Shown one piece after another: positions 24,170 through 41,365 of a stretch of DNA of 64,000 nt. The stretch covers positions 22,506,001 to 22,570,000 of the forward strand of contig OX597836.1 in assembly GCA_951406725.2 (NCBI GenBank), written 5' to 3'. The translations under genes and the position numbers were made by a program. This DNA is from Octopus vulgaris. Its lineage: Eukaryota. The notes beneath the pieces were generated by a model. The model made no database searches, was not told where the DNA came from, and worked only from the letters and a program-made list of their open reading frames with translations. Numbering within the stretch: the first letter of the stretch is position 1; every line of letters begins with the position of its first letter.

Positions 24170-25582
24170 GTTGTGTCTGGGGAGAGTCATTTTCTTTTAG
24201 TGCCTTATTATGTCCCTAACTCCAGCTGCAGTGATCAGCTTGTCGAGTTCCTTGAGGACATTACTCAGATCACTGACAGTGGCTCATGGGTGGATGTTGT
24301 CTACCTTGACTTTGCTAAGGCTTTCAACTCTGTGCCACACAAAAGGCTTATGGTCAAACTCTCTGCAATGGGTGTGAGGGATGACCTTTTTAACTTGTTG
24401 AAATCCTTCATTCTCAACCGAAAGGAGGTAGTCACAGTTCTAGGACAGCATTCTACACCATATGAGATGTCATCGGGTGTACCACAGGGATCTGTCCTTG
24501 GTCCCCTCTTGTTTGTGGCATACATTAATGACATAGATGCAAATTTAAAGAATGCCACAGTATTAAAATATGCAGACGACATCAAGCTGTACCTTGAAAT
24601 CAAGAGGACAGATCCTGTTGTCTACAGCTCTTTCCTGCAATCAGACCTGGACACAATGCAGCAAGGGATCACAGACTGGCAACTGAAACTGGCTGTGGAC
24701 AAGTGTACCACCATGCATTTTGGGAGAAAAAACCCTGCGTCCACATACTCCCTCCACAACACTGATATCAAGAAATCCTCTTGCGAGCGTGACCTAGGCA
24801 TCACTGTCAGCAGTGATTTGCGTTGGACAAAGCATATCTCTAAAATTGTCAAGGAGGCCGAGGGTGTCTTGGCATCACTCAGCAAGACTTTTGTTAGCCA
24901 CTCTCCAGCCATCTATTTAAAACTGTATACAGCTATGGTACGACCACACTTGGAATTCACATCATCAGTTTGGAACCCCTATCTTGCTCAGAACATTCAC
25001 CTCCTGGAATCTGTTCAGAGACGTGCAACCAAACGCATACCCTCCATTAGACACCTACCATATTCTGAGCGCCTTGTTTCCCTGGGCATGGATTCACTGA
25101 AGCTCCGGCGTCTGGCGACGGACTTGGTAAACGCCCACAAAGTTGTCAACCACCTCACCAATAACAACACTGAACACCTTTTTGATCTCCATGTGTCTAA
25201 CACACATGGACATGCCTACAAAGTCAGAAAACAACACAGGTCCCATGACTTTCGGAAACATTTCTTCACGCTCAGAGTTGCTGAAGCATGGAATAAACTG
25301 CCTGCGTCAGTTGTTGACTGCCATGACACTGCATCATTTAAGGCCCTCATGCTTCCCGAAATCCATCGAAACTACACCTGATTATATATGCACTCTAGAT
25401 GAGTTGTAGTGCACCTGAGCACTGTACACAATGTTTATTATTATTTTTTAACACGAAATAAATTAGTAAATTAGTGGAAACTTTACTGGTGAGTGTGTTT
25501 CCCCAGACACAACAAAATATGCTTCAACACACAAACTCACATAAAGAATCTTGCAAACCAAATCCAAAAACGAAGTATATAC
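24170..25582. mobile_element. Family F element with inverted halves (24170-24212 and 25446-25582), split by the CR1 insertion
   Basis: gttgtgtctggggagagtca..gccttatta | tttaacac is contiguous at 28640-28690; tccccagacacaac is inverted at about 25500. Confidence 0.7.
24213..25445 (+). mobile_element. CR1-type LINE, 5'-truncated; RT ORF open to 25381; (TTA)n tail; inserted in a family F element
   Basis: VDVVYLDFAKAFNSVPH, SGVPQGSVLGPLLF, KYADDIKLY, ERDLG, VRPHLE..VWNPY, LESVQRRATK, FFTLRVAEAWNKLP. Confidence 0.93.
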
Positions 25583-28638: not shown

Positions 28639-28642
<4 letters not shown>

Positions 28643-28850
28643 TGTGTCTGGGGAGAGTCATTCTCTTTTAGTGCCTTATTATTTAACACAATCACCGGTA
28701 AAATTTCCACTTATTTCTTATTTTTATTTTCTAAAATTTTCATTGCGTCTTGCAACCTTTTCAATAGTCTTGACTCTCAATAGTCAGCAGAATATGCTTC
28801 AACACACGAACTCATATAATGAATCTTGCAAACCAAATCCAAAAACGAAA
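28639..28850. mobile_element. Family F element (inverted 5' part plus forward 3' end) in (TA)n
   Basis: Matches 40754-40892 and 25446-25582. Confidence 0.75.
28731..28767 (-). ncRNA. Candidate minimal hammerhead with U3:A8 core
   Basis: CTA-TTGAAAA-G-GTTGC aagac GCAAT-GAAA-A-TTT-TAG. Confidence 0.55.
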
Positions 28851-28898
28851 TATATATATATAATTTAGAGAAAAACCTCTATTAAATAATTCAATAAT

Positions 28899-28964
<66 letters not shown>

Positions 28965-29475
28965 CAGATGAGTGGTTGGGAGAGCTGTACAAGCCTTGTA
29001 CAGGGATGCTACCATTAAGGTGAGGGTGGGCAATGAGTACAGCGAAGATGCCATGCAGTGGGACTGAACTTGCAACCATGTGGTTGTGAAGCAAGCTTCT
29101 TAACCCCATAGCCACACTTGTGAAACACAACCACATCTGTGCCTCACTTAGGCATGGTTCACATTGCAGGAGATAAAGGGATCTTTAATGGAACAACGCC
29201 ACAAGTTATTTTGTCCGATGTTCCACTAGACTGTATTGATGCAGACATCCAAGAATAAGTCATCGGATGATGATGATTGGAGAACAAACAGACCGAAACA
29301 CTTACTGTGGATGCGAATATTACAAATAAAAGGAAAAAAGGGGGAAAAAGTGTTTTGCTTTCACAGAAAATAGGAGTTATCAGTTGAGAGAGAATATATT
29401 TATTATAATCTGATTAATAGCAACACATCCCAGACAGCTATTCAGATATTTAATAGATGAGTTTTGTGTGTTTGT

Positions 29476-29541
<66 letters not shown>

Positions 29542-29640
29542 ATATATATATATATATATATACTGAAAAAATTGTGTATATATATATATGTATATATGTA
29601 TGTATGTGTATATATATATATATATATACGAGTTATCAGT

Positions 29641-29674
<34 letters not shown>

Positions 29675-29741
29675 ACTGATAACTCGTATGTATGTGTATA
29701 TATATATATATATATATATACGAGTTATCAGTTGATATATA

Positions 29742-29782
<41 letters not shown>

Positions 29783-30094
29783 GTATATATGTTTGTGTGT
29801 GTGTGTATGATGTCGTAAGTCTGATATGTTTTGACATATCCATTCCAACAACACAAGACATTGAAGAATGCAAACGAATCCACAGTTAATGGCTTTGGCA
29901 GCCATGATTATTGTCTGAAGAAACCATTCCAAGTGAGGTCAGTCTACTAAGAATCTCAAAAACCTCTTGCTAAAGAATTTCTTTGACTTTGTGTGAATGT
30001 GTCTGTGTGTAGGCATAACCTCAATACAAATGTGTATGTATGTATATATGTATACATTTATACATATATACACACACATACACACATACATACA

Positions 30095-30125
<31 letters not shown>

Positions 30126-30261
30126 TTATATTATGTATATAAATATATATATATGTATATATTATGTGTGTGTGTGTATATATGTTTATATATTATGTAT
30201 GTGTATATATATATATGTGTGTGTGTGTATATATATTATTATGTGCATATATAAAAATATA

Positions 30262-30840
30262 TATATATAAGGGGGATGACCACTATGTGGACATCCATTA
30301 TGCTAGAGTTAGACCCCATACGGTCTGACCACTAAGAAAAAATTGTTCTCAAGAAAATTTAGCAAACGTCAGAACGTAAGCGAGCAAGACAAATGAAAAG
30401 ATACAAAATATAAAGATTAACCACAAAGCCGATTTTGTTGTTACCATTTACATAATTACTTATGTAATTGTCCGCAACTCATCAGTGTGATTGTCATAGC
30501 AAAATATAATTTGCAGAACTATATACAAAACATCCACATGAGATTGAACATGCATATAGTTCTACCAATTACATTTGGGGTTATATTTCAAAACTCTTCA
30601 TTTTGGCACGCCAAAATACTGGAAAGAATTCTGCAGAAAATAATTCCTGCAGCGAATTTTGCCGGTTGGAGGACATGGTTATTAAAATATAAATAATAAG
30701 GGTGAAAAATTGAATATTGATTTGATGAATATCAATTTAAAACCAGTGGCCTAGCATATTGAAAAATCTGAAGATTCAGAAAAATTATATTACATATATA
30801 TAAGAGGGATGATCACTAAGTGGACATCCATTATGCTAGT
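30262..30840 (-). mobile_element. Family H: about 533-bp monomer plus a partial repeat, with a degenerate hammerhead at 30422-30489
   Basis: gtggacatccattatgctag at 30287 and 30820; minus strand CACA-CTGATGA-GTTG..CAAC-aAAA-tcggc-tt-TGTG. Confidence 0.6.
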
Positions 30841-31061
30841 TAATTTGGGATTCCTTAATGACAATGTAACCTTCATATAATTAAGGTGTCTTTGGCTTGA
30901 TGAGTAGCTGGCTGAGTACCCCTTGTTAAGTAATTATTACACCAGGGGATCTGCTAGCTAGGGCACATATGTAGCCTGGACTTCGCCTGTTCCACTCCCT
31001 CAATTTGGATCACACATACACACAGTGACACATATATAGTATAAATATTTATACATGCACA

Positions 31062-31100
<39 letters not shown>

Positions 31101-31104
<4 letters not shown>

Positions 31105-31178
31105 TTAGAGATAAAACCACTATTAGGCAAATCAAACAATGAAAAACATAAGCCAATAGTGGTTTTATCTCTAATTTA
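31101..31178. repeat. Perfect 24-bp inverted repeat adjoining (TA)n; related fragment at 44280-44336
   Basis: taaattagagataaaaccactatt / aatagtggttttatctctaattta. Confidence 0.8.
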
Positions 31179-31278
31179 ATATAATATAATATAATATATT
31201 TATACTATAAAATTGGATTTAATCCTAAATCTGATTTTTCCCTGTAAGTTTGGATTTATTCCCTAATATTTTATTATA

Positions 31279-31322
<44 letters not shown>

Positions 31323-32431
31323 TACACACGAAATATATCAATATATATATGGTATTTGTCTTTATATATTACTTTTTGTGTGAGTAACACTTTAGTGATT
31401 GAAGCTGTTGAATTTGTTTCATTTAATACTTTCTGAATCATTTGCCGCAAGCTGAAGTCATTCTGTATATTTTTTGTATTTGAAAGTCCATTCTGCTGTC
31501 TTCTTTGTCTTATAATGCTTACTGCTTTAATATTCATAAATTCTGATGATTCACTGTGCATTGCAACATTTGTAAGAGATTTCTTCATCAGTATTATCAC
31601 ATGAGCCTGACGGTTTGTTTTTTATTTTTTACTATTATTTATATATTATATACATGAAAGTGATAAACTCCACCAAATAACTGACCAATCCCATTATCTG
31701 CTGTCTCATTCTCCAATACTTTAAGATAACACCTCACAATATGGATGTTATTAATACACTGTGATTAAGCAGAACAAAAACCAGTAATCATTTGAAGTTA
31801 CAGATTGAAATTTAAACATGCCAAGGTGGTATATACATACAAGAAATATGTTTATACAAGAAATATTATTCTTCAGGAACTTTTGCAGAGAATATAAATG
31901 ATAATACCTATTATGTACATTTGTAGCTTTTGCACAGAATGTATCAAATATGTTGGAAATGCTTAGCTTTAGCTTAAACTAAACCTGCTTCCTGAAAATC
32001 ATTAGAAAAAATGCTTTCTTGCAAACCTTTAGAAAATCAATGTAACCTGAATGTACGTTAATGTACCCATGTACAAAATATGTATATATCTTGGTAGTTT
32101 TGAATACAGATTTTGAATACATATTTGTTTGAATACGACATTTGTGAAATTAGGTAGAATATAGCATAATATAGAATAATGATTGAATAATTGACTTCAA
32201 AAGATTATACATATTAAAAGCAATCAAACCTGTATAATACTTGAGGAGTGATAAATACAGGTATTATTTCCTCCTATCCTCTTGAGTACATTGGACACCA
32301 AGTTAATGTCACTGATTTCTATTGGCTAATATTTTCTTTACATCTGGTCATGTGACATTGGCTTTTCTCATGTCAGTTATGAATGTTCTACAACATGTTA
32401 ATTTTGATCTTCCTCTCTCCCACCTTACTCT

Positions 32432-32639
32432 CTTTACTCTTTTACTTGTTTCAGTCATTTGACTGTGGCCATGCTGGAGCACTGCCTTTAATCGAGCAAC
32501 TCGACCCCGGGACTTATTCTTTTTGTAAGCCCAGTACTTATTCTATCGGTCTCTTTTGCCGAACCGCTAAGTAACGGGGACATAAACACACCAGCATCGG
32601 TTGTCAAGCAATGCTAGGGGGACAAACACAGACACACAT

Positions 32640-32682
<43 letters not shown>

Positions 32683-32848
32683 TACGACGGGCTTCTTTCA
32701 GTTTCCGTCTACCAAATCCACTCACAAGGCTTTGGTCGGCCCGAGGCTATAGTAGAAGACACTTGCCCAAGGTGCCACGCAGTGGGACTGAACCCAGAAC
32801 CATGTGGTTGGTAAACAAACTACTTACCACACAGCCACTCCTGCGCCT
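32432..32848 (-). mobile_element. SINE A, full length, low divergence
   Basis: Family match. Confidence 0.9.
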
Positions 32849-32919
32849 GTGGTTTCCTTTTGTAAATTGTTTTAGAATAGCATTGTTCTGGTTGTATGTG
32901 ACCTGCTAGTTTCAACCCA

Positions 32920-33107
32920 TTAACCCAACTATATCTGACCCAAATATTCATGTTTCATGCTCAAACTGATCAGATCTGGCCTTTCACACCGACCTTATAA
33001 TGTCTCACTGAAAGTAATCAGTCTTCAAAATCTCTAAGCTATGAGATATCATGTGATTAATTCAAAGCATTGCATTTTATAGAATAATCTGAATGCTAAA
33101 GGGTTAA
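32920..33107. mobile_element. piggyBac-type MITE2, diverged
   Basis: Ends gaatgctaaagggTTAA; reverse-complement similarity to 49749-49969. Confidence 0.65.
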
Positions 33108-33109
33108 TC

Positions 33110-33235
33110 TTTGTTTTGTAATGGTTTTGCCAAGCTGTCTTGTGTTGGCTCTCTTTAAACTGTTTTTAATGGCTATGTGGTCTTGCCAGGATGTCCTCAG
33201 AATCTTTGTCAGGCATCTTTGGTGGAGCACATCTG
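33110..33235 (-). pseudogene. RTE-clade LINE internal fragment
   Basis: Minus translation DVLHQRCLTKILRTSWQDHI resembles RTE 'FHxRCLRxILxIxWQDxI'. Confidence 0.65.
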
Positions 33236-33720
33236 TTGATCACAAGAGGACCCTTGTGGGCAATAAAGAAATAAGACATATACACATACAATGGACTACT
33301 TTAATTTTCTGTCTCCCAAATTTACTGACAAAGCCTTGATTGGTCTGGGACAGAACCAGAAACCATGTGACTAGGAAGGAAACATCTTAATCACATAGCC
33401 ATGCTAAACCAAGAAGCAGATTAATCTCACCACGCATATATGTGCATGGCAGGATTTGAACTCGGCATTCAACACAAAGAACTGGGAAAAACACTGAACG
33501 GTATCTCTCTCTCTCTCTGACACTCCAGTGATTCTTTTAGTCCAGTGCCATGGATTGGTTGGCTGTCAATTGCGTAATTACAAATTAAGTGCAATTATTT
33601 TGAATGTTGGCGATGTTCATGGTTCATTTGCTATTAATGTTTTTAAATTAATATTGTAAAGTGTATAAACAAAACCTTTAGAGTAATGGCTGCTGTTAGT
33701 GATGAGAGGGAAAGAGAGAT

Positions 33721-33762
<42 letters not shown>

Positions 33763-34287
33763 GGAGAGAAAGGGGAGAGGGAGAGAGCTGTCGGTGAGAG
33801 TTCTTTGTTTCATGGTAAATGGACAGATAATTATATATTTTGTACAAGTAAATGGAATGTGTGTGCATATGTGTGCATGAGTTTGTGAGGATGGATGCGC
33901 GTATGCAACACTGTGTGCATGTGCATGCGTATAAGTGTGTGTTCATGTGCACCTGCTTCACTCTGTGTGTGTATGTGTGTTTGCATGTGTGCATGTATGT
34001 GCACCTGCATGTAGCTGTGTACACGTGCAAGCCTATGCAAGTGAGTGTGCAGGTGTATGCATGTCTGTGCATATATGCACATGTGTATGCCTGTGTATAT
34101 GTGTTTGCACATACATGTGCATGTATATGTGTGCAGCTTATATGCAAGCACATGTGCATGTGTGTGCATGTTTTTGCAGATATGCACATGAGTGTGCATT
34201 TATGTACATATGTATGCAGGTTTGTGCATATATGTGCATGTGTATGCCTGTGCACATGCATGCTCACACACACATGTGTGTGTCACA

Positions 34288-34689
34288 TTTACTCTTTTAC
34301 TCTTTTGCTCGTTTCAGTCATATGACTGTGGCCATGCTGGAGCACCACCTTTAGTCGAGCAAATCGACCCCAGAACTTATTCATTGTAAGCCTAATACTT
34401 ATTCTATCAGTCACTTTTGCCGAACCGCTAAGTTATGGGGATGTAACACACCAGCATCGGTTGTCAAGCGATGTTGGGGCGACAAACACAGACATATACA
34501 CATACATATGTATATATATATATATATATATATGACGGGCTTCTTTCAGTTTCCGTCTACTAAATCCACTCACAAGGCTTTGGTCAGCTCAAGGGTATAG
34601 TAGAAGACACTTGCCCAAGGTGCCATGCAGTGGGACTGAACCCGGAACCATGTGGTTGGTAAGCAAGCTACTTACCACACAGCCACTCT
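34288..34689 (-). mobile_element. SINE A, full length
   Basis: Family match. Confidence 0.9.
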
Positions 34690-34989
34690 ATGAAAGAAGC
34701 TGGCCTTGAATGTCATTCTTTGCTAAAATGCAACAGAACAAAACTCCATTGTTTCAGCCGTTCAGCCAAGCTGGCAATTTTCGTTAAAAAGCAGTAATAA
34801 TTTATTATCCAGATATATATCAATGACAATATTACCGTGACACAATCAAATTATGATAAGATATTCTCTCTGGCACACGCAGATGCCATCTTGAATGAGT
34901 TTATTTCCCCCTCGTCTGCAACTGTGCATTCACTCTTGGTGATTGCAATCAATGGATTTGCTGCTAATGATGTCACTCATCAGCTTTAT

Positions 34990-35200
34990 AGGTGCAGGCG
35001 TGGATCTGCGGTAAGGAGCTTACTTCCCAGACACGTGGATTTGGGTTCAGTCCCACTGCACGGCACATGGCACCTTGGGTCTCTTTTGCTATAGCCTCGA
35101 GCCGACTAAAGCCTTGTGAGCAGATTTGGTAGAGGGGAAACTGAAAGAAGACAGTTGTATGTTTGTGTATATATATATATATGTGTGTTTGTCTGTGTGT
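34990..35200 (+). mobile_element. SINE A, 5' half
   Basis: Family match. Confidence 0.75.
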
Positions 35201-35224
35201 GTGTATATATGTTTTTTTATATAT

Positions 35225-35356
35225 AAGAAAATACAAAAATGGGACAAGAACACAAAACATCCAGACAGACAATGCAAAGAAAACAAGGACAGGTCATTCG
35301 GAGTTTACTATCCTCAGTCGAGTTCCAGATCATCTTTGCAATTTCAGCTGGTTATA
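35225..35356. repeat. Family G fragment in (TA)n
   Basis: Matches 41425-41592. Confidence 0.75.
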
Positions 35357-35427
<71 letters not shown>

Positions 35428-35522
35428 GAAATAAAGTGTCTTGCTCAAGGATATAATGTGTCACCAGGAATCAAACACACAATACCCTAATCACCAAGCC
35501 CTGTGCCTTCACTTAATAAAAC

Positions 35523-36005
35523 TACCATAAATCCTCGAGTATAGTCTGCCCTTGAGTATAATACACAGGAGATTTTTAGGGGGTTGTACCACTGAAAAAC
35601 CGAAACCTTATGTATAATACACATCCCTTCTCTAACTTGAGTCAAGGAGGTCTATATAACGTCTTTGGTTTGTAAAAATGTATACGATAACGTCCTTTAT
35701 TATTATTGTATATATAACATAATGCAAACGTGTAGTTTTTTTATGCATTTTGTTTGCAGAAAATAAAGAAATAACAGTAATAACGTTTAATAAATGTTGT
35801 TTACTGCAAGTTATGGATGATTCTTTTATGACTTCATTGCTTTCAGGCTTAGCTTAATGAATAAACATTGCCAGACAGTAAATCAAGACTCGGACATTGC
35901 TTAGAAAATAATTTTCCTTTTTAACCTCGTATATAGTACGCACTAGGGATTTTGACCTTTAAATTTTGGGAAAAAAATGCGGATTATACTTGAGGATTTA
36001 CGGTA
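35523..36005. mobile_element. TcMar (Tc2/pogo-like) MITE, about 479 bp, TA TSD
   Basis: TA-ccataaatcctcgagtata ... tatacttgaggatttacgg-TA terminal inverted repeats. Confidence 0.85.
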
Positions 36006-36369
36006 TTTAGTTTGCAAGTACAAACTTGTAACCAGTTCAAATATGCATGGGGTATATTTGAGCCAATAAGAAATCCATCCACTGTCTTTTGTGGTAGAGA
36101 AAATGTCTCTCTGTAGACAAATGATGTAGGTGTTTTTACAGCAGGTATATTAATACCATTTGACTACAGTAAGAAATTTTCTCTGCAACAAAACACAGTG
36201 AATTTTTTCTCACAGGTCTGAATATGCCTCAAGGCATATTTGAACTGGTAATAACCTCGTATTTACACACCTCACTGCTTAGCACTGCCGATTGGTGCTG
36301 ACAGTCATTGTATAATGAGAGGAATAACCACAATAGAGGCAATTTTGCTTATCAATTCACAGCACACTC

Positions 36370-36601
36370 TGTCCTGGATGGGACGCCGGTCTGTCGCAGG
36401 TGAGCTGCAAGATGCATGAGGAAAGAGTGAGAGAAAGTTGTGGTGAAAGGGTGAGCAGAAGTTCGCCATTACCTTCTGCCGGAGCCGCATGGAGCTTAGG
36501 TGTTTCGCTCATAAACACACACATCGCCCGGTCTGAGATTCGAACCCGCGATCCCCTGACTGCGAGTCCACTGCTCTAACCACTAGGCCATGTGCCTCCA
36601 C
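36370..36601 (-). mobile_element. SINE C with V-like tail (truncated)
   Basis: Reverse complement of 15611-15840. Confidence 0.85.
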
Positions 36602-36784
36602 TATTTACACCATTCGTCTACAACAAGAGATTTTCTCCCTGACAAAACACAACGAATGGTTTTCTTGAGGGTTCAAATATGCCCCAGTATATTTGAACAG
36701 GTAATACACCTTGTATTTACACACATCACTGCTTTGTGCTGCCACCCTCTCCTTAATTTGCATCTTATTATAATAATAATAAGT

Positions 36785-37163
36785 AGGAGTGGCTGTGTGG
36801 TAAGTAGCTTGTTTACTAACCACATGGTTCCGGGTTCAGTCCCACTGCGTGGCACCTTGGGCAAGTGTCTTCTGCTATAGCCTTGTGAGTGGATTTGGTA
36901 GACGGAAACTGGAAGAAGCCCGTCGTATATATATATGCGTGTGTGTGTTTGTGTGTCTGTGTTTGTCCCCCTAGCATTGCTTGACAACCTAGCTTGCTGG
37001 TGTGTTTATGTCCCCGTTACTTAGCAGTTCGGCAAAAGAGACCGGTAGAATAAGTACAATAAGTACTGGGCTTACAAAAGAATAAGTCCCGGGGTCGAGT
37101 TGCTCGATTAAAGGCAGTGCTCCAGCATGGCCACAGTCAAATGACTGAAACAAGTAAAAGAGT
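36785..37163 (+). mobile_element. SINE A, full length
   Basis: Family match. Confidence 0.9.
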
Positions 37164-38222
37164 GAAAAAAAAAAAGAGTAAGTCTTGGTCTCATGTTGCT
37201 TTAGAGATGTTAATTGGCTCTGATGATGTGACAATTCATTGTTTGATCTACAAGAATGTTGTTGTTGTCTGTAAGTTGTCCTTGACTAAATTTAATGTTG
37301 AGAAAATCTCTTCAGAGCAGTAAGTGGTAGAGAAACATCAATGCCGTTTTCAATGTATGATTCCTTAAAGAAGGATGGCCATTTCTTTCTTTTTTTTTTT
37401 TTTCAGTATCTATAGAAGATATCTAACATTCCAAAATAGATAACTTATTGAATTTAAATATCAAAATATTATGTAACTGTAAATGAATAAAGTCAAGTTA
37501 TGGCATTACATCAAAAGATTTTTTTTCTCTATATTTGTAGTTTGGGGTGGAGTGGGGGGTGGGGTCATGATTCTGAAAAATTTTTCAAAAATTCTTTTGA
37601 AATAGAAATAAATAAATAAATAATTTGAAATTCTCTGTGACATGTTCTGCCATCGATTCTGGTTTTTATTTCATTCAGTGTTTGAAAATAAAACAGCTTT
37701 GGTGTTGTTTGTTTGTTTATTTACTTTTTTTTTTTTTTGTAGAATTTCAAACAAATAATATTCAAAGTTCCTGATATTACCAAGAGACATAATAAACTAA
37801 TATCACTCAGCTCTTGGAGTTTCAAACTTTAAATCTTTTATGTAACCAGTGACACCAATTAAAAATGCCAAATCGCATAATCATTTTTAGAGCTTTAATT
37901 CCATTACGACAATGTCTTTAACATCCATGAAGAGTTTCATTTCATCTTTCAGCTCAAAGAAGCATTAGATATGCCAGTATTATATTCCCTGAATTATGAC
38001 AAAGCTGGTGGTGCGGTACCATAATTTGGTTATAGTCACAGAGAATGAATTCCACAGACAACAACAGCGAGATTCTATGTCTGGAATTTATTGTCTTTTA
38101 ATATGACAAAGACTGTCTGATATTTGGTCCTCATTTTAAAATTCTGATAATTTCTTCAATAAAACATCAAATGTCAGATACAAGCTGTTTGGTATTTATT
38201 AAAGGAAAGTCTTTGTTGCCTT

Positions 38223-38270
<48 letters not shown>

Positions 38271-39038
38271 TGTATGTTTGTGTGTATGCCTCAAGCATAT
38301 TCACGCTAATAACAATATTACTTTTACTCCATGCACACTGACATATTTACATATGTTCATATGTATGTCTGTCTGTGTGTTTATGTGTGTGTGTGGGTGT
38401 GTGTGTATGTGTGTGATCAGAGATACACATATTGTCAGCCACTAAGGGACATGCTCAACTGGTTAAGGTCAAACAACTGACAAGCAAATCTGTGGTATTG
38501 AGCAGAATATCTGCTGTAGCCCATCTTTTATACCGAGACAATACAATGTACATGATAACACTTGTTGCTGCTTAATGTGTAGGAAAGGTGTTGGCAGAAA
38601 TTCCATATCATGTACCCAGTCCAAGTTTTGGACACACAAGAGGTGCTGTGGAATCACAGGAAGATTAACAGTGATGCACAGGTGCCATAGAGTCCAAGGT
38701 TGCATACGAAATTGATTTTTTCAAACGCCCTGGGGGTCCATATTGTAGAGAGGTTGGCATTTGGAAAGGCACCATGTTAAAGCAGATATTGGTGCATGAA
38801 GCCACCCTTGAATACATCAAATCTTATTAAACCATCCAAATATGGAATATAGACTTTAAATGATGATGGTACACACCAGTGTCGTATGGTACCACCAAAT
38901 TTCGAGCAGAAGTATAACAAACGTTTTCCATTAAGATTTGTGATTAAATTAATGAGTAAGGTTAATTTGCATTTTTGATGGGTGTGCAACACGCACCAAA
39001 CACACCCATAATATATGTCCTTGGTACACACACACACA

Positions 39039-39072
<34 letters not shown>

Positions 39073-39681
39073 AATGTGAGTGTGTGTGTCTAAAACAACA
39101 AGAATTACAAAGAAAGCAACAACTGCTAAATGAATTCTCTCAATTCCTTATTGTCAATCACTAAGGAATATTTTTAACAACAACAGTAACCATATTATCA
39201 CTATGAGATTTATTTTTAAGAGGATATGATATATCACAAGTGCTCACAAGAGATTGTGGTAAATGAAGCAGCCAATGGTAGGCTTGGAAAGAATTCTCTC
39301 AGCTGCATTCATTTTATCAAAGAATATGTATGTGTGTGTATTCGTATGAGTGTGGTTGTGTGTGTGTGTGCATGCATGTCTGTATGTGTGTGCATGTATG
39401 CTTGTGCATATGTGTATGGTGTGTACATGTGTAAGTGTATATACATGTTTATAAACAAACACACACACACACATATACATACATACATACATACATATAT
39501 ATACACACATATATATATGCACATAAATATGTGTATAAAAAATATCTATAAGTTCGTGTGTGCGAATATATATACATATATATATATATATGTATGGATA
39601 TGTATATATACACTATACATACACACATGTATATATTATACATATGCATACTCATATACACAGATCCACAAATACATATAT

Positions 39682-39768
<87 letters not shown>

Positions 39769-40181
39769 TCATGTTCACACACACACACACAAATGCATAT
39801 CTATGCATGCAACTGGTGAGTGAGTGTCCTTAAGGCCACACCACTCCTTCATTGGCTGAATGAACCGTAAGAAATCCTAAGAGACACAATGTTTTGTGCA
39901 ATGGTGTGTATGACAAATGGTATAAAGATGGCAACACTTGATAGATCCTTTGTTTGTTTAATTGATGTAAAATAAAAGAAATGATGCAAAGAGGAAGAGA
40001 CTAGAGAAAGAAGAAAGAGAACAAGGAGGAAAAAAAATCATTCAGAGCTGTGCATTGTGTGTGTGTGTGTGTGTGTGCGTGTGTGTGTGTGTGTGCGTGT
40101 GTGTGTGTGTGTGCGAGTGTGTATACAATCATACATACAACATACATATAAATATATATCTGTATATGGGTGTGTGTGTAT

Positions 40182-40510
40182 AGCCTTCGGGCTCCCCAGA
40201 CCCCAGTTGAACCGTCCAACCCATGCTAGCATGGAAAGCGGACATCATCGTTTAACGTCCGTTCTCCATGCTAGCATGGGTTGGACGGTTCGACCGGGGA
40301 TCTGGGAAGCCAGAAGGCTGCACCAGGCTCCGGTCTTATCTGGCAATGTTTCTACAGCTGGATGCCCTTCTTAACGCCAACCACTCCGTGAGTGTAGTGG
40401 GTCCTTTTTACGTGCCACCTGCACTGGTGCCAGGCGAGGCTGGCATCGGCCACGGTCGGATTGGTGCATTTTACGTGCCACCTGCACAGAAGCCAAGTTG
40501 AGGTGGCACA
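40182..40510. mobile_element. Family D: tail-to-tail inverted pair and a longer minus copy
   Basis: Arms 40182-40243 and 40257-40319. Confidence 0.8.
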
Positions 40511-40513
40511 TAT

Positions 40514-40722
40514 ATCTGTAAAATAATATGTGACAATTATTCAATAGCCAAGATAAAACTCTGAGTTTCGGACGCTGAGGTGGAAATCCACAACACCATC
40601 TCTTCGGTTCTATCTTGGCTATTGAATAATTGTCACATATTATTTTACAGATAAATTTCCTCTGTATACATAATATTGAGGTCTCTTTCTTTCTTTTGTT
40701 ATCTTACCGTTTTTACCAATCT
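40514..40722. mobile_element. Short element with a perfect approximately 42-bp inverted duplication (Penelope-like end)
   Basis: atctgtaaaataatatgtgacaattattcaatagccaagata at 40514-40555 is inverted at 40611-40652. Confidence 0.65.
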
Positions 40723-40753
40723 ATATATATATATATATATACACATACACACA

Positions 40754-40892
40754 CTGTTGTATCTGGGGTGAGTCATTTTCTTTTTGTGCCTTATAATTTA
40801 ACACACTCACCGGTAAAATTTCCACTTATTTCTTATTTATATTTTCCTAAAATTTTCGCTGCGTCTTGCAACCTTTTCAATAGTCTTGACTC
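40754..40892 (-). mobile_element. Family F element with candidate U3:A8 hammerhead at 40847-40883
   Basis: CTA-TTGAAAA-G-GTTGC aagac GCAGC-GAAA-A-TTT-TAG. Confidence 0.65.
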
Positions 40893-40998
40893 TGTCCGTT
40901 ATTTACACTGCGTTCCTTTTTTGTTTGTTTGTGCACAGAAACATATGTAAGCTAACTGGAATAAATGCATAAACATCCATTATTTGTGTGCATTTGCG

Positions 40999-41365
40999 CA
41001 GGAGTGATTCCGGGTTCAGTCCCACTGCGTGGCATCTTGGGCAAGTGTCTTCTGCTATAGCCCCGGGCCGACCAATGCCTTGTGAGTGGATTTGGTAGAC
41101 GGAAACTGAAAGAAGCCTGTCGTATATATGTATATATATATATATAAGTGTGTGTGTATATGTTTGTGTGTCTGTGTTTGTCCCCCTAGCATTGCTTGAC
41201 AACCGATGCTGGTATGTTTACGTCCCCGTCTCTTAGCGGTTCGGCAAAAGAGACCGATAGAATAAGTACTGGGCTTACAAAGAATAAGTCCCGGGGTCGA
41301 TTTGCTCGACTACAGGCGGTGCTCCAGCATGGCCGCAGTCAAATGACTGAAACAAGTAAAAGAGA
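40999..41365 (+). mobile_element. SINE A (deletion in head)
   Basis: Family match. Confidence 0.88.

What the first reader, a model, noticed from the sequence alone, without database searches (positions are those of the whole stretch)
28731..40883. Family F carries a hammerhead-like motif with a compensatory U3:A8 catalytic core
Seen on the minus strand in two copies (28731-28767, 40847-40883): CTA-TTGAAAA-G-GTTGC(aagac)GCAAT or GCAGC-GAAA-A-TTT-TAG. The geometry matches the other minimal hammerheads here: 7-nt core plus one extra purine, 5-bp stem II (pairing kept by G-U wobble in both copies), GAAA, palindromic AA|UU stem III, NUH site, stem I CTA/TAG. Known: C3 pairs with G8 in the active fold, and the double change U3/A8 preserves the pair and occurs as a natural variant. 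Inference: a selected ribozyme variant that CTGANGA searches miss. Weak points: stem I is only 3 bp and the UUU cleavage triplet is unfavourable.
Basis: partly seen in the sequence, partly recalled or inferred. Interest (0 to 1): 0.75.

Follow-up and report, generated by a model that had tools for sequence, protein, structure and literature searches.

The report
Jumping-gene hammerhead with shifting core pair
The motif is the small hammerhead-shaped RNA at the end of a Penelope-type jumping gene, with a U-A instead of C-G core pair already known from other animals; older generations of the same element spread with that pair loosened or mismatched, which suggests that any cutting is likely weak and not what makes the element move.

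Summary
Both motifs are present exactly as described. They are 5'-truncated pseudo-LTR copies of a Neptune-like Penelope retroelement (RT, Zn-finger linker, C-terminal GIY-YIG) with at least 2,284 exact genomic matches; the predicted cut lies 73 nt before the ORF start. The fold is under selection in the source lineage: between successive subfamily majorities the catalytic core and stem II changed at 1 of 76 compared positions (a register artefact), flanks at 55 of 337, and stems I, II and III covary. U3:A8 in PLE hammerheads is published (Schistosoma), and this scan noted the same kind on other DNA, so the motif is a new member of a known kind. The twist: an older subfamily amplified with U3·G8 and sits between older and younger U3:A8 subfamilies; another amplified with C3·A8; a sister family keeps C3:G8. 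No C3:G8 subfamily exists inside the family, and copy 5' ends do not pile up at the cut. Best reading: a slow, dimer-dependent, probably protein-assisted ribozyme under weak selection, dispensable for insertion. Cleavage is untested.

The parts
28731..28767 (-). Minimal type I hammerhead motif, copy 1 (U3:A8; C11.1>U by CpG decay); predicted cut between 28734 and 28733
40847..40883 (-). Minimal type I hammerhead motif, copy 2 (U3:A8; A11.2>G); predicted cut between 40850 and 40849
28639..28777 (-). 5'-truncated pseudo-LTR of the young (A) subfamily, ending 23 nt into the ORF and abutting (TA)n; ORF ATG at 28661-28659
28778..28850 (+). Inverted partner of copy 1: short junction duplication plus the 60-nt PLE 'tail' (start of the ORF, 28791-28850), ending in (TA)n
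40754..40937 (-). 5'-truncated pseudo-LTR of the young subfamily, ending 23 nt into the ORF before a (TG)/(TA) repeat; ORF ATG at 40776-40774
24170..24213 (-). Shorter copy of the same pseudo-LTR end, without the hammerhead, before (TA)n
25458..25575 (+). Internally deleted copy of the same end with the tail, without the hammerhead

Best explanation
The motif is the minimal hammerhead fold in the pseudo-LTR of a Neptune-like Penelope retroelement, kept by selection in the element's source lineage, and it likely acts as a slow, dimer-dependent and probably protein-assisted self-cleavage site that is not needed for insertion. Shown: it lies 600-950 nt behind the GIY-YIG coding end and 73 nt before the next ORF start in partial tandems; insertions end 23 or about 80 nt inside that ORF. 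Inferred: a read-through RNA with two pseudo-LTRs pairs the palindromic stem III of two motifs and is cut after U17, trimming precursor RNA; most reverse transcription uses uncut RNA. The 3-8 pair was U:A in most subfamilies, U·G in one that lies on the trunk and C·A in one old branch, so selection on it is real but weak.
For: PLE anatomy: RT motif YSRYVDD, DKSG, C-x4-C-x2-C linker, VVY..C..C..YIG with two His; weak Pfam GIY-YIG hits (E 0.0003-0.003, below cut-off) and RT-type NCBIfam hits. Of 30 loci found by the endonuclease end, 16 show the motif downstream in the same sense. Partial tandems, head-to-head inversions, one-sided tail and (TA)n targets, as described for PLEs (PMC8557442 passages; PMC11167929). 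Selection: 1 of 76 core/stem II positions against 55 of 337 flank positions differ between successive subfamily majorities, Fisher p=1.3e-4. Covariation: stem I pair 2 C-G (sister family, E) / U·G (C) / U-A (B, A); pair 3 C-G / U-A; stem III G-C with a 2-nt loop (sister, E) / A-U without loop; stem II pairs 3 and 4 C-G, A-U (sister) / U-A, G-C. Weak selection on 3-8: 50 of 95 exact old-loop matches are U3·G8 (my count); U3·G8 copies have 0 private flank states, 11 shared with their A8 successors and 4 shared with the older subfamily; 15 of 33 E copies are C3-G7-A8, linked to position 7 (p=0.005). A Poseidon hammerhead needed the element's protein to cut and its mutants did not affect insertion in vitro (PMC11167929); metazoan min-hammerheads cut weakly and only as dimers (PMC4209133).
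Against: No cleavage was measured. In one type III hammerhead all single and double core mutants except G3:C8 had low activity (PMC9901934 passage), so U3:A8 itself may be poor. With U17 the young motif contains an 8-nt A4U4 palindrome; the modelled dimer that buries A13, A14 and the cut site is about 10 kcal/mol more stable than the active-like dimer (-15.6 against -5.4; core tertiary contacts are not modelled). Stem I shrank from 4 to 3 pairs. 0 of 71 unselected copies start at the cut site (nearest at -4, +3, +8). The ORF tree does not reject U3·G8 as a side branch once one doubtful row is dropped (p-AU 0.18-0.19; 0.012 with it), and the sister family roots the tree at the young end (E-end root not rejected, p-AU 0.11-0.17).
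Confidence: 0.6

Rival explanations
1. The hammerhead fold is kept as a structural or protein-binding element (or lingers as a vestige) and no longer cuts to any useful extent in this lineage.
For: Amplification with U3·G8 and C3·A8; misfolding palindrome at U17; 3-bp stem I; no copy ends at the cut; the young sister family carries C9 in 40 of 40 sampled motifs; hammerhead mutants did not affect PAc insertion in vitro.
Confidence: 0.28
2. It is an efficient ribozyme whose cut makes the unit-length or circular RNA that the element must use as template; U3:A8 is a fully compensated core.
For: Conserved core and covarying stems; U3:A8 variants reported as active in vitro (PMC3088659 passage citing earlier work); processing model proposed in PMC4209133.
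Against: Whole subfamilies spread without a Watson-Crick 3-8 pair; copies routinely extend hundreds of bases upstream of the cut and none begins at it.
Confidence: 0.09
3. The match is chance, or a by-product of protein coding through the motif with a short intron behind it.
For: In the young subfamily the motif lies in a stop-free frame of about 30 codons that would join the ORF if a 57-nt GT..AG segment were removed (sequence).
Against: 0 hits in 60 random windows; older subfamilies have frame-breaking indels and a stop there and lack that AG; the sister family starts at the homologous downstream ATG; no GT-AG joint in four contig sets; a canonical C3:G8 hammerhead stands at the same place in the sister family.
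Confidence: 0.03

Closest known systems
U3-A8 minimal hammerheads in pLTRs of Cercyon PLEs of Schistosoma mansoni (Cervera and de la Pena 2014, PMC4209133; parts 1-2 of 4 read)
   Same: Type I minimal motif in a PLE pseudo-LTR, U3-A8 core, extra nucleotide between 9 and 10.1, G10.1-C11.1, palindromic 15.2-16.2, mostly single truncated copies and inverted pairs.
   Different: Shorter stems here (stem II 5 bp, stem I 3-4 bp against 7-8 and 4-5); a Neptune-like element in a cephalopod-type genome (closest named homolog is labelled Octopus vulgaris); a dated series with amplified U3·G8 and C3·A8 states, which the parts read do not describe.
Poseidon element PAc of Anolis (Frangieh et al. 2024, PMC11167929; parts 1-2 of 4 read)
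   Same: Hammerhead at the pLTR-ORF junction; two insertion ends inside the ORF start that delimit a tail; AT-rich targets; no reads or copies ending at the cut.
   Different: PAc has C3:G8 and its ORF begins inside stem II; here the cut is 73 nt upstream of the ATG, the ends are at +23 and about +80, and a Zn-finger linker is present.
Neptune/Nematis EN+ PLEs (Craig et al. 2021, PMC8557442; passages read)
   Same: RT, CX2-5CxxC linker, C-terminal GIY-YIG with CCHH, microsatellite targets, inverted 5'-truncated copies, tail, hammerhead near the 3' end.
   Different: Tail about 60 nt rather than 30-40; clade not placed by RT phylogeny here.
Natural U3-A8 core covariation in hammerheads generally (Perreault et al. 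2011, PMC3088659; passages read)
   Same: Same pair swap.
   Different: Those are full motifs with tertiary contacts; this one is minimal and depends on a partner for stem III.

Membership tests
EN+ Penelope-like element | Single ORF with RT followed by GIY-YIG endonuclease | tested here: met
   RT and GIY-YIG motifs in order in L040/L061, L227, L233; profile hits are weak and below curated cut-offs; family copies are broken, the sister family has open frames up to about 1,300 aa
EN+ Penelope-like element | Pseudo-LTRs from partial tandems, inverted 5'-truncated copies, one-sided tail | tested here: met
   window copy 1 has an inverted tail piece
Neptune (or Nematis) clade | CX2-5CxxC linker between RT and EN, CCHH in EN | tested here: met
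   C-x4-C-x2-C linker, two Cys between VVY and YIG, two His (definition)
Neptune (or Nematis) clade | Placement in the RT phylogeny of PLE clades | not tested
   No reference PLE set was available; 'Neptune-like' rests on architecture and (TA)n targeting
Minimal type I hammerhead of metazoan PLEs | Core letters U4 G5 A6, A9, G12 A13 A14, A15.1-U16.1, H17 | tested here: met
   Present in all subfamily majorities
Minimal type I hammerhead of metazoan PLEs | Watson-Crick pair between positions 3 and 8 | tested here: met
   Met as U:A in both window copies and in subfamilies A, B', late B, C, part of E; not met in subfamily B (U·G) and E1 (C·A)
Minimal type I hammerhead of metazoan PLEs | Extra nucleotide after 9, G10.1-C11.1, palindromic 15.2-16.2, stems I and II with covariation | tested here: met
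   copy 1 has lost C11.1 after insertion
Minimal type I hammerhead of metazoan PLEs | Self-cleavage after N17 as a dimer | not testable with these tools
   Needs a cleavage assay; folding model shows a competing dimer
Rfam hammerhead families | Covariance-model match | tested here: not met
   No hammerhead family among 4 matches at E<=10 on a clean copy; none among the 150 of 354 window matches listed; expected for a motif without stem III
Non-LTR retrozyme | Non-coding tandem units each with a hammerhead | tested here: not met
   Copies are truncated ends of a coding element, single or inverted

The most novel reading that the evidence does not exclude
One retroelement lineage records a natural, dated series of hammerhead cores: U3:A8, an amplified C3·A8 branch, an amplified U3·G8 stage on the trunk, and a return to U3:A8, beside a C3:G8 sister. 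The element kept spreading without the catalytic 3-8 pair yet restored it, showing that the PLE hammerhead is selected but dispensable for transposition, or that the element's protein rescues wobble cores.
Probability: 0.5. Interest if true: 0.6.

Novelty: new member of a known kind. Interest (0 to 1): 0.4.

Why it matters
What hammerheads do in Penelope-like elements is open: they cut poorly in vitro and were dispensable for insertion in the one reconstituted system. This family supplies natural versions (U:A, U·G, C·A at 3-8; U or C at 17; 3- or 4-bp stem I; C3:G8 with C9 in the sister family), each proven able to ride on an amplifying element, so a small set of cleavage assays would show whether amplification tracks activity. 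The motif by itself is a known variant and would only add some thousands of copies that CUGANGA searches overlook.

Tried and rejected
ORF through the motif plus 57-nt intron: rejected (older subfamilies break the frame and lack the AG; sister family starts at the downstream ATG; no GT-AG joint, only a 52-nt skip with 2-nt microhomology and a 57-nt replacement). C3:G8 subfamily inside the family: rejected (9 exact matches; scattered; C3 is found in 7 of 100 and 7 of 95 rows of unbiased patterns). Reading E1 (C3·A8) as the intermediate from C3:G8: not supported; E1 has its own loop and flank states and is as likely a side branch; it is not measurably older than U3 E copies (Mann-Whitney p=0.86, with several poorly aligned rows), and 0 of 9 exact E-type matches were C3-G7-A8. 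Rooting by the sister family: uninformative or at the young end; order of ages rests on terminal branch lengths (A 0.042, B' 0.059, late B 0.073, B 0.080, E 0.112) and minimum-variance rooting. Lower per-copy change inside the motif is ascertainment, not used. Expression: no RNA holder listed; contigs of four runs guessed to be RNA hold the pseudo-LTR and some span the predicted cut; no conclusion drawn. Metagenome scan for relatives: 64 pattern hits, none confirmed. Longer fetches of 10 old copies gave no further ORF. Kinetic papers on 3-8 mutants were not held; searches for C3U/G8A and U3A8 found nothing usable, so rates for U3·G8 and C3·A8 are not cited. No search was aimed at prior reports of U3·G8 PLE subfamilies beyond; absence from print is not established, and supplements of PMC4209133 and PMC8557442 were not read.
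Full report
Observation. Both motifs are in the sequence exactly as given and lie in a shared repeat of about 140 nt. A descriptor scan finds these 2 in the window and 0 in 60 dinucleotide-matched random sequences of 64 kb. A 33-letter pattern with positions 3, 7, 8 and one loop base left free has 2,284 exact matches in the 2.8-Gb genome and 0 for the reversed control; of the 100 rows listed, by my count 91 are U3:A8, 6 C3·A8, and 1 each C3:G8, U3·G8 and U3·C8. Stem II is normally five Watson-Crick pairs; the wobble in copy 1 is CpG decay of the conserved C11.1, which strikes 15 of 80 young copies while the lethal G12>A strikes 7 of 80. The wobbles are therefore decay, not selection.

What the repeat is. 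Walking upstream from 30 genomic copies led to the end of a GIY-YIG endonuclease; 30 loci found with that end gave RT, a C-x4-C-x2-C linker and the endonuclease, with the motif downstream in 16 of 30. Pfam GIY-YIG and RT-type profiles hit weakly, below cut-off. A near-complete copy and partial tandems show the order ORF, microsatellite-rich 3' UTR, hammerhead, 73 nt, ATG of the next unit. Of 126 deduplicated copies, 3' ends cluster at about +23 and +79 of the ORF, the stretch between being the one-sided tail; head-to-head inversions and (TA)n targets are common. This matches PLE anatomy in PMC8557442 (passages) and the two internal reverse-transcription starts in PMC11167929 (parts 1-2 of 4). 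Both window copies are 5'-truncated ends of the young subfamily; copy 1 carries an inverted tail piece.

Sister family. The best longer homolog (59% identity, labelled Octopus vulgaris) belongs to a young family in the same genome with long open frames (60% identity). At the same place it carries a hammerhead with C3:G8 and C9 in 40 of 40 sampled motifs, and it starts at the homologous ATG with the same two ends. This fixes the ORF start and rejects my early idea that the motif is coding.

Subfamilies. Searches seeded with diverged copies and patterns gave 186 deduplicated copies in classes A 80, B' 13, B 51, C 20, D 1, E 21 (sampling is by best hits, not random). Between successive majorities (E-C, C-B, B-B', B'-A) nine core positions and stem II differ at 1 of 76 comparisons, that one being a register shift from the shortened stem III, against 55 of 337 in non-coding flanks (p=1.3e-4). 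Pairs change together: stem I pair 2 is C-G in the sister family and E, U·G in C, U-A in B and A; pair 3 is C-G or U-A; stem III is G-C around two bases in the sister family and E and A-U without loop later; stem II pairs 3 and 4 differ on both sides from the sister family. Position 17 is U or C. The fold is real and selected in the source elements.

The 3-8 pair. Among 95 exact matches with the older loop and free positions 3, 7, 8, by my count 50 are U3·G8, 36 U3:A8, 4 C3:G8, 3 C3·A8 and 2 other. The C3:G8 copies (9 genome-wide) are scattered over the tree at the 7% background of T>C at this site, so no C3:G8 subfamily exists inside the family. The 38 G8 copies have no flank state of their own, share 11 derived states with the 11 A8 copies that follow them and 4 with the older C subfamily. 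The ORF tree is one ladder E - D - B - late B - B' - A with end branches falling from 0.112 to 0.042, and needs 2 changes at position 8. Against: with one doubtful row dropped, G8 as a side branch is not rejected (p-AU 0.18 and 0.19), and the sister family attaches at the young end although an E-end root is not rejected and minimum-variance rooting prefers it; rows without a known pseudo-LTR state (14 of 44) were left out. In E, 18 of 33 copies have C3, nearly all with A8, linked to G7 (p=0.005), far above background, so a C3·A8 source also amplified; whether it precedes or derives from U3:A8 is unresolved. Contigs of four other DNA-like runs, coded as four organisms of which one may be the window's own source, show both C and T at position 3 and no listed alternative at position 8 when laid on an E copy.

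How it most likely works. Shown: position, conservation, covariation, tolerated 3-8 mismatches, and that 0 of 71 unselected copies begin at the predicted cut. Inferred from PMC4209133 (parts 1-2 of 4): two motifs in one read-through RNA pair their palindromic stem III and cut weakly. From PMC11167929: cutting may need the element's protein and is not needed for insertion in vitro. Modelling adds a warning: with U17 an 8-nt palindrome offers a dimer about 10 kcal/mol more stable than the active-like one, and in one type III hammerhead only the G3:C8 swap rescued the pair (PMC9901934 passages), though U3-A8 variants are reported as active elsewhere (PMC3088659 passages). I put slow, dispensable cutting at 0.6, a non-cutting structural or vestigial role at 0.28, efficient essential processing at 0.09 and chance at 0.03.

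Known and new. U3-A8 minimal hammerheads in PLE pseudo-LTRs were reported in 2014 (about 1,300 in Schistosoma), so the finding as stated is a new member of a known kind. Earlier notes of this scan, looked up after my reading was formed, record the same kind in other genomes and, in this genome, a swapped G3:C8 family and a mini-element that spread after core changes; I did not check them. What this family adds is a dated natural series of core states within one lineage, which makes the purpose of PLE hammerheads easy to test. Score 0.4.

Noticed in passing
L237 (G000:C18:50374300-50379800) and L193-L222: Young sister Neptune-like family with near-identical copies, open frames up to about 1,300 aa and a C3:G8 hammerhead that has C instead of A at position 9 in all 40 sampled motifs; its ORF carries a long Asn/Ser-rich low-complexity insert.
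   Followed up: partly
window 59266 (-), about 59275-59235: Decayed C3:G8 minimal hammerhead of another family (4-bp stems I and II, GAAG for GAAA).
   Followed up: no
window 20784 (-): CUGAUGA core with a 5-bp stem II and a long stem I but GAUA for GAAA; probably a decayed motif of a further PLE-type repeat.
   Followed up: no
window 28777 and L130, L133, L135, L144, L145, L146, L158: Inversion or truncation junctions recur 42-44 nt upstream of the predicted cut, beside a 4-bp inverted repeat that overlaps the 5' strand of stem I; 15 of 71 unselected 5' ends fall between -49 and -30, partly perhaps an alignment edge. Possible fold-back hotspot.
   Followed up: partly
young subfamily, position 3: T>C at the second letter of ATTG reaches about 7%, several times the neighbouring sites; resembles a hypermutable word known from mammals (recalled, not checked).
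   Followed up: no
L306, L307, L309, L310, L281: An E-type branch with U3:A8 and a much longer spacer between hammerhead and ATG, closer in length to the sister family; may be the deepest branch.
   Followed up: partly
window 41000-41300 (-): A truncated abundant SINE-like repeat lies just upstream of copy 2; the same repeat interrupts or flanks many fetched loci.
   Followed up: no
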